Origin: a bacterium
Lineage (GTDB): Bacteria > UBA8248 > JACPRG01 > G963555815
DNA length: 64,000 bases
Reading direction: 5' to 3'
Assembly: GCA_965261595.1 (NCBI GenBank)
Contig: CBDHDG010000001.1
Span: 1-64,000, forward strand
The position numbers and the translations under genes are program-made. The notes beneath the pieces were generated by a model that saw only the letters and a program-made list of their open reading frames with translations, searched no databases and was not told the DNA's origin. Of this stretch, positions 36,510 to 39,612 are shown one piece after another; position 1 is the first letter of the stretch; each line of letters starts with the position of its first letter.

Positions 36510-36714
36510 ACGAACCGGCCATCCCCCAATGCGTGAGAGGAGGATTCGACAAGCCGTACGGTGTTAGTCTACCACAAACGGTCCGTGGACTCAGTGATCC
36601 CCGGTTTTCGGTGGTGTCCTAATTCGAAATATTTCGGGAACGCTATTCTCCCCCGCTCTAGGGTTTTGTTGGACACTCGATTGATCCATGATTCATGGAG
36701 AAAGGGGTGTCGCG

Positions 36715-37101
36715 ATGAACGAACAAAAGCAAGAGGGGGCTTTGGCGGAGGGCGCCCGCAGGGCGAACGGAGCCAAGGCCCCAGGGCATCGCAGTGAGCG
36801 GGGTCGGTTCTCCTGCCAGCGCAAGCGGGAGGCGGTCCTGCGTCTTTTGCGGGGCGAGAGCCTGGAGACGCTCTGCCGCGAGTTGGGCACGACAGCGGCT
36901 CGGCTTTCCGCCTGGCGCGAGGCGTTCCTTCGCGGGGGCGAGGCGGCGCTCAAAGCCCGCCCGGCGGATGAGCGGGACGAGGAGAACGCCCGGCTCAAGG
37001 CCAAGGTGGGCGAACTCACGATGGAGGGCGAGGTCCTGCGGGAGAAGATCGACCGCCTGGAGGCCGGCCGCCCTTTAGCCGGCAGGAGGTGGAGGCGATG
37101 A
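36715..37101 (+). CDS. IS3 transposase OrfA (HTH plus coiled coil)
   Basis: RFS..RKREAVLRLLRGE...ELG...L..W; LKAKVGELTME.E.L. Confidence 0.88.
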   Translation: MNEQKQEGALAEGARRANGAKAPGHRSERGRFSCQRKREAVLRLLRGESLETLCRELGTTAARLSAWREAFLRGGEAALKARPADERDEENARLKAKVGELTMEGEVLREKIDRLEAGRPLAGRRWRR

Positions 37102-38006
37102 GTCAGGCCCGCTTCACCTCCACGGGCAGAGCCTACGGCCTGAAGCGGGTGTGCGCCCTTTGGGGCTTGGCGCGCTCCACGGTCTACGCGCAACGGCGGC
37201 GAGAGGCGGTCCCCGTTCATGAACGCCCCACGCCCAATAAGCGCGGCCCTGTGGGCCCGTGCACCGATGCGGAACTCCTCGGCCACATCCGGCAGGTCCT
37301 GGAGGACTCTCCCTTCCATGGCGAGGGCTACCGCAAGGTGTGGGCGAGGCTGCGCTTCGCGGGCATCCGCACCAGCAAGGAGCGGATGCGTCGCCTGATG
37401 CGGGAGGCGGGGCTTCAGGCCCCCCACCGGGTGGGCAAACCCCGAGGTCCCAAGGCCCACAACGGGACCATCCGCACCGAGCGGCCCGACCGAATGTGGG
37501 GCACGGACATGACGACGACGGTGACCACCGAGGAGGGGATGGCCTCGGTGTTCGTGGCGGTGGATCACTGCTCGGTGGACTGCGTGGGGATCCATGCGGC
37601 CAAGAGCGGCAACCGCTTCGAGGCCCTGGAGCCGATCCGGCAGGGGGTCGCCGAGCGCTTCGCCGGCTTGGAGGCGGACGTCGCCGAGGGGCTTAAAGTT
37701 CGTCACGACCACGGCCCCGCCTATCTGTCCGATGACTTTCAGCGGGAGATCGCCTACCTGGGCATGACCAGTTCGCCCAGCTTCGTGCGGGCGCCCGAGG
37801 GAAATGGCTACTGTGAGTGGTTTATCCGCATCTTGAAGGAGAATCTCCTGTGGGTGCGCTCTTTCGCCACCGTAGAGGAACTGCGGTGGGCGCTGCTTGA
37901 GTTCAAGAACCTGTATAACCATCATTGGATTCTCGAGGGCTACGGCTACCGAACGCCGGCCCAGGCAAGGCAGGAAAAACTCGCTCAAGTTGCGGAGGCC
38001 GCATGA
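37098..38006 (+). CDS. IS3 transposase OrfB (DDE integrase core)
   Basis: GYRKVW, WGTDMT, HDHG, GNG..E.F...LKE; ATGA overlap with orfA. Confidence 0.9.
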   Translation: MSQARFTSTGRAYGLKRVCALWGLARSTVYAQRRREAVPVHERPTPNKRGPVGPCTDAELLGHIRQVLEDSPFHGEGYRKVWARLRFAGIRTSKERMRRLMREAGLQAPHRVGKPRGPKAHNGTIRTERPDRMWGTDMTTTVTTEEGMASVFVAVDHCSVDCVGIHAAKSGNRFEALEPIRQGVAERFAGLEADVAEGLKVRHDHGPAYLSDDFQREIAYLGMTSSPSFVRAPEGNGYCEWFIRILKENLLWVRSFATVEELRWALLEFKNLYNHHWILEGYGYRTPAQARQEKLAQVAEAA

Positions 38007-38686
38007 GGTCGAATACCCTCACCCGAGTGTCCAATAACCCAGGGGCGGTCCAATTCCCCGAAGCAATCAGGGAACCAGTCGCGCTTGAGGGGGAGGTACT
38101 TATAGACGACTTTGGCTAGCTCTGCACCGGGTTCTATGGAGGCGGCGAATATTTTCTTTCCCGCGTTCATCGCGGCTTTCACCACCGGAGTGTAGTCACC
38201 ATCGGCGGCCAAGAGGTATGCAACGTCGTATTCGTTCCGAACAGCCATCATGACCATATCAACGGCCAACATGACATCCACAGCCTTCTCCACCATGACG
38301 CTGACCTTCTCATGCCGTGTGGCACTGGCGACTAGATATTTGTAGACGTCCGGGTCAATCCTCACGGTGAGACTGGCGAGATATCGCTTTATCTCTTGAG
38401 AAAAACTATTTACGATGGATCGCTCTTCGAGGCGCCCATAATGGATGCTGATCCGCTTGTCGCGGGCGGCCAGCCATGCCATATATCGACGTTGGTTGGC
38501 ATAGAGTTCCGTATTGCCTATTTGCTTCACTTGACCAACGTAGTAGCGGGTTCCGATCCAGTCACGAGCCCCGACGATCTTCGCTGAAACCTTTGCGTAG
38601 TTCAACTGGCCCAAGCCCATTACGCCAGCCCGCTTGAGGCTGTGATACCAATTGTTGCCGTCCACGAAAACGAGAGCACGTTCCAT
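37985..38686 (-). CDS. NYN (LabA/DUF88, PIN-like) domain protein; native 211 aa, extended by 22 aa into the IS
   Basis: FVDGNN, EKAVD..LAVD, DGDY acidic motifs; lower GC than flanks. Confidence 0.88.
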   Translation of the reverse strand: MERALVFVDGNNWYHSLKRAGVMGLGQLNYAKVSAKIVGARDWIGTRYYVGQVKQIGNTELYANQRRYMAWLAARDKRISIHYGRLEERSIVNSFSQEIKRYLASLTVRIDPDVYKYLVASATRHEKVSVMVEKAVDVMLAVDMVMMAVRNEYDVAYLLAADGDYTPVVKAAMNAGKKIFAASIEPGAELAKVVYKYLPLKRDWFPDCFGELDRPWVIGHSGEGIRPHAASAT

Positions 38687-38795
38687 AGATGACGCCCAAA
38701 ACGAAAACCCCGGGGTGTAGCCCTTGCGGACTAGACCCCGGGGGGGTAAGAGCCGAGTCCCGTAAGACTCCGGCACCAAGTCACTTTCGTCATCT
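38687..38795 (-). ncRNA. Candidate structured RNA leader or antitoxin upstream of the NYN gene
   Basis: Closing helix AGAUGACG/CGUCAUCU enclosing a UACG-tetraloop hairpin and a GCAA-tetraloop hairpin. Confidence 0.65.
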
Positions 38796-38814
38796 CTTTA
38801 TCCTGAATATGTAA

Positions 38815-38842
38815 AAAATATAGACGCTTAATTCTTTGTCAA
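38815..38842 (-). promoter_or_regulatory. Sigma70-type promoter for the RNA plus NYN gene
   Basis: TTGACA (38842-38837), 16 nt spacer, TATTTT (38820-38815). Confidence 0.6.
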
Positions 38843-38921
38843 GCTCGAATTTTCCTTTTTCATCGGCCGTGCGGCACCGGCAATTGTTGAGAACAGGTGC
38901 CGTCAAGCGTCCACCCGGAGC

Positions 38922-39097
38922 CGTCATTCCCGCGCAGGCGGGAATCCAGCGTTCTGGGTTGCGAGTCCATCCTCCTGCCCACTTATCATTGAGTTGGGAA
39001 GAATACGACAGAGAGAGAGGTCTTCGGCGCAGCCGGGGGTCGGATTGATTGGGACCGCTCTGAAGCACTTCTGGATTCCCGCCTCCGTGGGAATGAC
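38922..39097. repeat. Inverted pair of CGTC-type REP palindromes (GTCATTCCCGCGCAGGCGGGAATCCAG family)
   Basis: Copy at 38922-38949 and reverse copy at 39071-39097. Confidence 0.8.
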
Positions 39098-39612
39098 AAT
39101 CGGGGGGAGGATGCGGAATGGCGGCGAGCTCTCAAGGTTCAGGGGATCGCTCGTCAGGGCGGAAATCACGGATGATCCTCGGGGGCTTCGTTTCTTCAAG
39201 TTCCGAAAACCGGGCATAACCGGGGAATCCAGGCCATCGGCGATGACGCCCGCTTCTGTAGGTCAATCGCCCCGTTTCCCGGATCTCAAAAATAAAAACA
39301 TATTGATTTCATTGCGATTCCGCCTTTGGGTTTGGATCGTACTTTTATATTCTTCAGCCGCTCCATCCCCGCGGAGAAAACTTCGCCGCACCGTTCTCTG
39401 TCCCAATCCGATGAATTTTCGGTTCCAAGCAAGTGCAGTCCATAAAACGAAATTAATACGAAACAAAAGGCCCGACAACTATTTTTTCGATCTGCGTGGA
39501 GGGACGGAAGTTTCGTTTATCGTTTTCCGATGAGATCGGCAGATTGGAGGGCGAAACGCGTTCGGACCCACACGACCGCAGGAGCAGGTTGCTCGAATGG
39601 AAGGTCAGGCGA

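What the first reader, a model, noticed from the sequence alone, without database searches (positions are those of the whole stretch)
38054..38842. NYN/LabA nuclease preceded by a compact three-way-junction RNA: candidate RNA-antitoxin or defence module
Seen on the minus strand: a TTGACA-N16-TATTTT promoter, then a 109-nt element in which AGAUGACG (38795-38788) pairs with CGUCAUCU (38694-38687, abutting the ATG). This helix encloses hairpin GCC-g-GAGUCU-UACG-GGACUC-GGC (UNCG loop) and hairpin CCCCGGGGU-c-UAGUCC-GCAA-GGGCUA-c-ACCCCGGGG (GNRA loop), followed by a U-rich tract. There is no clear Shine-Dalgarno and no protein antitoxin gene. The gene is lower-GC, sits alone between housekeeping ubiX and hflX, and has REPs upstream. 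Known: NYN domains are PIN-like RNases, and type III TA and AbiF/HEPN RNases are neutralised by upstream cis-encoded RNAs. Inference: an analogous, possibly undescribed, NYN plus ncRNA toxin-antitoxin or abortive-infection system, or an autoregulatory attenuator cleaved by the nuclease.
Basis: partly seen in the sequence, partly recalled or inferred. Interest (0 to 1): 0.82.

Follow-up and report, generated by a model that had tools for sequence, protein, structure and literature searches.

The report
RNA-paired NYN nuclease, candidate toxin-antitoxin
A small two-hairpin RNA sequence with its own predicted promoter sits beside almost every copy of one bacterial RNA-cutting enzyme gene found in about ten phyla, and it likely works as an antidote that binds and silences the enzyme, a kind of pairing that my searches found described only for unrelated enzyme folds.

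Summary
The element is real, but it is a two-hairpin RNA, not a three-way junction. A sigma-70-type promoter, hairpin P1, a U-rich linker, hairpin P2 (fixed C.C mismatch) and a U tract lie beside 155 of 160 homologous NYN loci; the other five are cut by contig ends or an IS. Pairs covary; no Rfam match. In two loci the RNA sits downstream on the opposite strand with its own promoter, where it cannot be an attenuator. In 302 sampled genomes all 11 intact genes have the RNA, while 8 genomes keep the RNA after losing the gene. A complete 437-kb phage carries promoter plus RNA without any NYN gene. Best reading (0.62): an RNA antitoxin for a PIN/NYN-fold RNase, working like AbiF or type III systems but belonging to neither. 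Toxicity, binding and expression are untested. The gene is not alone here: an IS3-family element sits in its stop codon. Earlier scan notes saw other leader RNAs before NYN genes in unrelated taxa; none matched this protein.

The parts
38815..38842 (-). Predicted sigma-70-type promoter (-35 TTGACA 38842-38837, -10 TATTTT 38820-38815)
   Evidence: Sequence; a TTGAC-like box lies 43-49 nt before the P1 loop in 92 of 98 measurable homologues
38779..38808 (-). Lineage-specific 5' extension of about 30 nt; holds AGAUGACG (38795-38788), which can pair with 38694-38687 and would cover the bases before the start codon
   Evidence: Fold; 8-bp match reached in 0.2% of 5000 shuffles, a post hoc test; absent from homologues
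38752..38774 (-). Hairpin P1: stem free in sequence but covarying, YAMG-type tetraloop (UACG here)
   Evidence: 8 of 9 modelled pairs have changes on both sides; loop CACG, UACG, CAAG or UAAG in 99 of 121 rows
38744..38751 (-). Single-stranded U-rich linker with a conserved A
   Evidence: U in 119 of 121 and A in 113 of 121 rows
38708..38743 (-). Hairpin P2: sequence-conserved stem with a C.C mismatch (38734 and 38717); likely protein-binding site and terminator stem
   Evidence: 11 of its 13 pairs have both columns at least 80% invariant; C.C in 114 of 121 rows
38698..38707 (-). U tract after P2 (predicted intrinsic terminator)
   Evidence: Hairpin plus U tract within 60 nt of the start codon in 127 of 135 intact homologues against 27 of 485 neighbouring ORFs
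38054..38686 (-). NYN (LabA/DUF88, PIN-like) nuclease gene, native length 211 aa, acidic active-site motifs intact (D9, E133/D137, D162, D164)
   Evidence: Pfam; homologues of about 211 aa ending DCFGE; model pLDDT 89.9 matches 2qip and the MARF1 NYN domain
36649..38052 (+). IS3-family insertion sequence in the NYN stop codon; adds 22 IS-derived residues (ORF now ends at 37985); target duplication at 36645-36648 and 38053-38056
   Evidence: Transposase domains; over 150 matches in the genome; empty site in 4 of 4 other samples
38878..39227 (.). Dispersed REP/MITE-like repeat upstream of the promoter; not part of the module
   Evidence: 27-nt inverted arms 38923-38949 and 39071-39097; many genome copies at 78-90% identity

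Best explanation
The locus is likely an RNA-protein toxin-antitoxin module, in which a predicted promoter would make a short two-hairpin RNA that likely binds and inhibits the NYN ribonuclease encoded behind it. Inferred steps: most transcripts stop at the P2/U-tract terminator, so RNA is in excess; rare read-through with a weak ribosome site gives little protein; the protein binds the sequence-fixed P2 stem with its C.C mismatch and perhaps the single-stranded linker; when transcription stops (phage infection, loss of the element) the RNA decays and the RNase is freed, giving growth arrest, abortive infection or addiction. Shown: the anatomy, its conservation, covariation, linkage pattern and intact active-site motifs. 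In this lineage an extra 8-bp helix over the start region would add a translational brake.
For: RNA beside 155 of 160 homologous loci. Covariation: 18 of 22 pairs change on both sides, above 500 of 500 shuffles and all slid controls; the top 6 of 2581 column pairs by MI-APC are predicted pairs. P2 is fixed in sequence while P1 varies freely, as for a protein-binding site. Trans-type evidence: the only two intact genes without the leader copy (L103, L141) carry a full copy with its own TTGAC-N17 promoter downstream on the opposite strand (70 and 55 bits); extra copies at L037 (tandem) and L038 (3 kb away); 2-3 tandem units before sister-clade genes L314, L317. Asymmetric loss in the same 302 genomes: 11 of 11 full-length genes have the RNA, 8 of 20 genomes with a strong RNA hit have a broken or missing gene. 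Patchy across phyla, absent from 60 of 60 relatives. No conserved protein partner (largest neighbour family 9 of 160 loci). 24 of 80 loci have a TA, restriction, defence or mobile-element gene as nearest neighbour (my count). A complete 437-kb phage has promoter plus RNA and no NYN, like pseudo-ToxI (PMC3475682, abstract). Same layout as AbiF/RCd22 (10.1101/2025.04.15.648962, section 6).
Against: No expression, binding or toxicity data: the one RNA run available does not cover the RNA or gene. A distant NYN relative, HEC-09, gave no phage protection in E. coli (10.1101/2024.01.29.577857, passages). 56 of 80 loci have no defence-type nearest neighbour and I ran no genome-wide control. The core family has no match in 72,556 plasmids or 50,697 phage records. 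Orphan RNAs could reflect target size (630 against 75 nt) and the fact that deleting the leader also deletes the promoter. L103 and L141 may be one event (not tested). The phage copy is a single case, has a degenerate P1 and lies between convergent ORFs, where it could serve as a plain terminator. The model was built from 121 of these sequences, and the loci are partly redundant (131 distinct of 150).
Confidence: 0.62

Rival explanations
1. The RNA is only a cis autoregulatory leader: a non-toxic NYN RNase binds or cuts its own leader at P2 to set its level, as RNase E and RNase III do (recalled).
For: 153 of 155 copies are 5' leaders ending 2-38 nt (median 16) before the start codon; a fixed P2 sequence fits any self-binding site; Shine-Dalgarno-like words in only 25 of 106 and GTG/TTG starts in 40 of 106.
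Against: Opposite-strand downstream copies with their own promoter, tandem units each with a promoter, orphans and a phage copy have no use as attenuators; in L103 the leader copy has decayed while the downstream copy is intact.
Confidence: 0.2
2. The RNA is a cofactor or scaffold of an active ribonucleoprotein (it activates, matures or aims the nuclease) and not an inhibitor.
For: Obligate one-to-one linkage including in trans-type positions; RNA subtypes follow protein clades (7 changes for 5 labels against 33.7 shuffled; kin share labels, so this shows co-inheritance only).
Against: No variable guide segment other than the P1 stem and P2 loop, both paired or short; a phage would gain little from an activator; genes are lost while RNAs stay.
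Confidence: 0.12
3. The element is a generic promoter-terminator or dispersed repeat that travels with the gene and has no specific tie to the protein.
For: P2 plus U tract is terminator-like; 4 strong RNA hits precede unrelated DNA with no NYN remnant (L260, L262, L264, L270); an earlier scan note (e1-4216757) reached this view for a different RNA in Clostridia.
Against: Single copy in this genome and 1-2 copies in every genome with a hit; 16 of 21 RNA-first hits lie before an intact, broken or IS-split NYN gene; an invariant C.C mismatch weakens a terminator and would not be kept for that role.
Confidence: 0.06

Closest known systems
AbiF / AbiFr and C. difficile AbiF-RCd22 (HEPN RNase with a cis-encoded RNA antitoxin; Rfam abiF motif RF03085)
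   Same: Promoter, about 100-nt structured RNA, intrinsic terminator, then toxin gene by read-through; RNA acts in cis and in trans (10.1101/2025.04.15.648962, abstract and section 6; PMC12737573, passages).
   Different: Nuclease is PIN/NYN fold, not HEPN; RNA does not match RF03085 or any Rfam family; toxicity and binding untested here.
Type III toxin-antitoxin families ToxIN, CptIN, TenpIN
   Same: Promoter, RNA, terminator, RNase gene; no protein antitoxin; a phage-borne RNA copy recalls pseudo-ToxI of phage PhiTE (PMC3475682, abstract).
   Different: Different protein family; RNA is usually one unit of two simple hairpins and includes the terminator stem, not tandem pseudoknot repeats upstream of it (PMC12283969, passages).
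HEC-09 (NYN-domain candidate defence gene, PADLOC PDLC04163)
   Same: NYN fold with conserved aspartates; partial match E 8e-16; relatives found inside defence loci.
   Different: Separate clade (a true member scores E 1e-67); gave no defence when tested and no RNA was mentioned in the passages seen. Six genes of that type that I read carry a different two-hairpin RNA on the opposite strand.
DUF3800-associated RNA motifs (Weinberg et al. 2017, PMC5737381)
   Same: Several unrelated terminator-ended RNAs tied to one protein family, in either orientation, function unknown (passages).
   Different: Different protein; main text has no mention of NYN, LabA or PIN (supplements not seen).
LabA-like NYN proteins (PF01936; VPA0982 2qip; MARF1 NYN)
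   Same: Fold and active-site motifs.
   Different: This subfamily has a helical insertion (about residues 85-134) and a dedicated RNA.

Membership tests
NYN / LabA-DUF88 (PF01936) | Profile match above the curated cut-off | tested here: met
   54.8 bits against 24.2
NYN / LabA-DUF88 (PF01936) | PIN-like fold with conserved acidic active-site residues | tested here: met
   Model matches 2qip (E 4e-7) and MARF1 NYN; D9, E133, D137, D162, D164 invariant in 47 of 47; motifs in 136, 137 and 126 of 137 full-length homologues
NYN / LabA-DUF88 (PF01936) | Ribonuclease activity | not testable with these tools
   Inferred from fold
Type III TA (ToxIN, CptIN, TenpIN) | Toxin of the ToxN, CptN or TenpN family | tested here: not met
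   Only NYN-type profiles match in Pfam, NCBIfam and PADLOC
Type III TA (ToxIN, CptIN, TenpIN) | Promoter, RNA, intrinsic terminator, then toxin gene | tested here: met
   (predicted from sequence)
Type III TA (ToxIN, CptIN, TenpIN) | Antitoxin as tandem repeats between promoter and terminator | tested here: not met
   One unit in nearly all loci; whole promoter-RNA units are doubled or tripled in L037, L314, L317
Type III TA (ToxIN, CptIN, TenpIN) | Pseudoknot fold of the antitoxin | tested here: inconclusive
   Top covarying pairs are all nested hairpin pairs; invariant columns cannot show or exclude further pairs
Type III TA (ToxIN, CptIN, TenpIN) | Protein is toxic and the RNA binds and neutralises it | not testable with these tools
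   Indirect only: loss asymmetry, trans-type copies, phage copy
AbiF / AbiFr | HEPN-domain (Abi_2) nuclease | tested here: not met
AbiF / AbiFr | abiF RNA motif RF03085 upstream | tested here: not met
   No Rfam match at gathering score in the window; best at E up to 10 are 3 chance-level hits to other families
HEC-09 | Full-length strong match to the HEC-09 profile and same clade | tested here: not met
   Partial match only; separate clade
REP / MITE dispersed repeat | Many copies per genome unlinked to one gene | tested here: not met
   1-2 copies per genome; 16 of 21 RNA-first hits precede NYN sequence

The most novel reading that the evidence does not exclude
Stand-alone LabA/NYN nucleases form a large, overlooked class of RNA-controlled toxins: each clade has its own promoter-hairpin-terminator RNA (sense leader, tandem array or opposite-strand gene), they ride on small plasmids of cultured bacteria as addiction or abortive-infection modules, and jumbo phages capture the RNA as a decoy antitoxin. 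This would be the first RNA-antitoxin class built on the PIN fold.
Probability: 0.4. Interest if true: 0.92.

Novelty: new variant of a known kind. Interest (0 to 1): 0.8.

Why it matters
RNA antitoxins are described for ToxN-type and HEPN (AbiF) nucleases, and AbiF with its RNA is reported as the ancestor of Cas13 (PMC12737573, passages). PIN-fold toxins are held in check by protein antitoxins (own knowledge). A PIN/NYN RNase held by a 70-nt RNA would be an independent origin of RNA control of a nuclease, give a function to a common 'NYN domain-containing protein' annotation, define an RNA family missing from Rfam 15, and supply a candidate phage RNA decoy. It is cheap to test: one 633-nt gene and one 75-nt RNA.

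Tried and rejected
Three-way junction as the conserved fold: rejected. Known RNA family: no Rfam match for the window or for the leaders in 20 related loci (the one hit is a molybdenum riboswitch elsewhere in L305). Dispersed repeat: rejected. Protein antitoxin neighbour: none conserved. Core family in viral contigs by protein: 0 of 47 candidates confirmed; in plasmids and cultured phages: none. More phage RNA copies: 5 pattern scans of viral contigs gave only L161 (RNA plus a truncated NYN start) and L162; 79 loci from a 15-nt pattern gave only the same phage; variant patterns gave 0 and 54 loci, none with RNA context or NYN. Expression: the single RNA run covers only 38822-38900 at depth 2, and the Hi-C run laid 0 reads: no test. 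Pfam terminase search of the phage record was blank; PHROGs then found terminase, portal, head protease and tail genes. Model R1 does not detect the leaders of 18 distant NYN loci at E 0.001, so those RNAs are similar in layout only. Sequence search of the PDB found nothing significant. No RNA-protein complex could be modelled with the tools.

Full report
OBSERVATION. The minus strand carries TTGACA (38842-38837), a 16-nt spacer, TATTTT, two hairpins, a U tract and an ATG at 38686. Rfam 15 has no match at gathering score in the whole window and three chance-level hits at E up to 10. The ORF is an NYN domain protein. It now reads 233 aa, but its last 22 codons belong to a 1404-bp IS3-family element (36649-38052) with over 150 matches in this genome. 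The element has a 4-bp target duplication and splits the native stop codon. Close homologues are about 211 aa and end in DCFGE, and contigs from 4 of 4 other samples skip exactly these 1408 bases. So the gene is intact in other strains and C-terminally extended in this one. The repeats upstream belong to a dispersed element unrelated to the module.

THE PROTEIN. 492 relatives at E up to 0.001 among 631 candidates; 106 clusters at 50% identity score E up to 1e-30. The acidic NYN motifs are invariant in 47 aligned sequences and present in 136, 137 and 126 of 137 full-length homologues. The predicted structure (pLDDT 89.9) matches VPA0982 (2qip) and the MARF1 NYN domain, with a helical insertion. 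RNase activity is inferred from this.

THE RNA. I fetched 80 genome and 80 metagenome loci (37-80% protein identity); record titles span about ten phyla, among them Acidobacteriota, Gemmatimonadota, Myxococcota, Planctomycetota, Pseudomonadota and Chloroflexota. An alignment of 121 elements (I left out redundant loci and the most divergent variants) gave model R1. R1 finds the element at 78 of 80 genome loci (four of them weak P2-only variants at 26-30 bits) and 77 of 80 metagenome loci. Of the five misses, four have a contig end within 25 nt of the gene and one has its 5' end replaced by a transposase. The conserved unit is promoter, P1, U-rich linker with a conserved A, P2, U tract, then 2-38 nt to the start codon. 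18 of 22 pairs show changes on both sides; the structure exceeds 500 of 500 shuffles and all six slid controls; the six best of 2581 column pairs by MI-APC are all predicted pairs (112 of the 121 rows). Related sequences inflate such counts, and the structure was drawn from these sequences. P1 varies freely in sequence and keeps a YAMG-type loop in 99 of 121 rows; P2 is nearly fixed and keeps a C.C mismatch in 114 of 121. A hairpin plus U tract lies within 60 nt of the start in 127 of 135 intact genes against 27 of 485 neighbouring ORFs.

IS IT TIED TO THE GENE? It is single-copy here and was not found in 60 relatives. An RNA-first search of three groups of 151 genomes gave 21 new hits. Downstream of them: 10 intact genes (one cut by a contig end), 1 frameshifted, 4 short remnants (one very short), 1 split by an IS, 4 with no trace, and 1 weak hit without promoter. 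In the two Acidobacteriota samples (302 genomes) searched with both queries, all 11 full-length genes have the RNA, and 8 of 20 genomes with a strong RNA hit lack an intact gene. This is the order of loss expected if the protein is harmful without the RNA, though target size could contribute. No neighbour family recurs in more than 9 of 160 loci. By my count 24 of 80 genome loci have a TA, restriction-modification, defence or mobile gene as nearest neighbour, including genes set between a SNF2 helicase and an MmeI-like methylase; 56 do not, and there is no control.

CIS OR TRANS? Two intact genes lack the leader copy. Both have a complete copy, with a TTGAC-N17 promoter, just behind the stop codon on the opposite strand (L103, L141). 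In L103 a decayed leader copy is still visible; in L141 the gene overlaps the stop of an upstream ORF. These may share one origin. L037 has two copies in tandem and L038 a second copy 3 kb away. A sister clade has a P2-only variant, in two or three tandem units 300-800 nt upstream in L314 and L317. None of these layouts suits a mere attenuator.

A PHAGE COPY. Pattern scans of viral contigs found two records. One has the RNA before a truncated NYN start. The other is a 437-kb record with direct terminal repeats, rated complete, with terminase, portal, head protease and tail genes (40 ORFs scanned) and a type I-C CRISPR locus and RtcB (70 ORFs scanned). It carries TTGACA-N17-TAGGCT, a degenerate P1, the linker, a consensus P2 and the U tract (51.9 bits) and no NYN match. 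This parallels pseudo-ToxI of phage PhiTE (PMC3475682, abstract seen). It is one case, the host is unknown, and it could be a captured terminator.

BEYOND THIS CLADE (leads, read by eye). Most distant stand-alone NYN genes that I inspected also have promoter-hairpin-terminator leaders of other sequence, including the three other NYN genes of this genome and genes on 3.5-12 kb plasmids of cultured bacteria. Six genes of the HEC-09 type (L281, L285, L390, L391, L403, L408) have a two-hairpin unit on the opposite strand, with a reverse TTGAC promoter visible in five. Exceptions: L393, L409 and L302 show nothing of the kind, and L404 is unclear. R1 does not detect these leaders (0 of 18). RNA types cluster on the protein tree, which shows co-inheritance only.

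MECHANISM. Shown: anatomy, conservation, covariation, linkage, loss pattern, intact active-site motifs. Inferred: a terminated RNA in excess over a weakly translated RNase (Shine-Dalgarno-like word in 25 of 106, GTG or TTG start in 40 of 106), binding through P2, inhibition, release when transcription fails. I put this at 0.62, a cis-only autoregulatory leader at 0.20, an activating or aiming RNA at 0.12 and a generic element at 0.06. No expression evidence was found. HEC-09, a distant relative, gave no phage protection in E. coli (bioRxiv 2024.01.29.577857, passages).

RELATION TO KNOWN SYSTEMS. It works like AbiF/RCd22 (bioRxiv 2025.04.15.648962, abstract and section 6) and type III TA (PMC12283969, passages), but fails membership of both on protein family and RNA type. 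Ten literature searches gave no paper on an RNA partner of a bacterial NYN/LabA protein; a search for NYN with 'type III toxin-antitoxin' returned 0. The library lacks most subscription journals; the Cell 2025 AbiF paper was seen only through a review (PMC12737573, passages), the Weinberg 2017 supplements were not read, and bioRxiv supplements are closed, so a prior listing of this motif cannot be excluded. PMC11346440 (CRISPR-associated NYN) was seen as a search listing only. The labels YAMG/YNMG tetraloop, IS3 family, DISARM-like and the RNase E/III autoregulation analogy are recalled. Earlier scan notes had no look-alike of this protein but mention other leaders before NYN genes; I did not test them.

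VERDICT. A real, conserved, apparently uncatalogued RNA tightly paired with an NYN nuclease family; new variant of the RNA-antitoxin kind if the bench tests hold. Interest 0.80.

Noticed in passing
window 36649-38052: IS3-family element with over 150 near-identical matches in this 6.2-Mb genome and very high contig depth in other samples: a recent, large IS expansion; this copy is absent in four other samples.
   Followed up: partly
window 38878-39227: Dispersed REP/MITE-like element with 27-nt inverted arms and many genome copies; further repeats fill the spacer up to hflX.
   Followed up: partly
G000 C3:110532-110960, C3:11567-12091, C4:414700-415224 (L399-L401): Three more NYN genes in this genome, each behind a predicted promoter, hairpin(s) and U tract; two are identical copies on different contigs.
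   Followed up: partly
L281, L285, L390, L391, L403, L408, about 30-150 nt upstream of the gene: HEC-09-type NYN genes have a conserved two-hairpin unit on the opposite strand, seen in Acidobacteriota, Thermus and Microbacterium; no Rfam match in those scanned. Relatives of this protein lie on 382 plasmids.
   Followed up: partly
L314:810-1200, L317:600-1130, L326: Sister-clade NYN genes with tandem promoter-plus-P2 RNA units far upstream.
   Followed up: partly
L402:250-1067 (E. coli plasmid NZ_CP091696.1, 3461 bp): A three-gene plasmid, also found in Serratia, carries an NYN gene behind a promoter and a multi-hairpin leader: a possible addiction module.
   Followed up: no
G061 (L162, L172, L410-L429): 437-kb jumbo phage with type I-C CRISPR-Cas and arrays, RtcB, RNase II-like protein, GroEL, an actin homologue and a two-component pair; several small genes in L172 share a repeated upstream motif.
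   Followed up: partly
L001, L083, L161 upstream of the promoter: The module often follows the end of a transposase-like ORF, hinting at a preferred insertion context.
   Followed up: no
L040, L042, L043: The RNA-NYN module is embedded between a SNF2 helicase and an MmeI-like methylase, a DISARM/BREX-like defence operon (label recalled).
   Followed up: partly
window 38801, 38802, 38814, 38338: Strain variants in other samples; none falls in P1, P2 or the 8-bp outer helix.
   Followed up: yes
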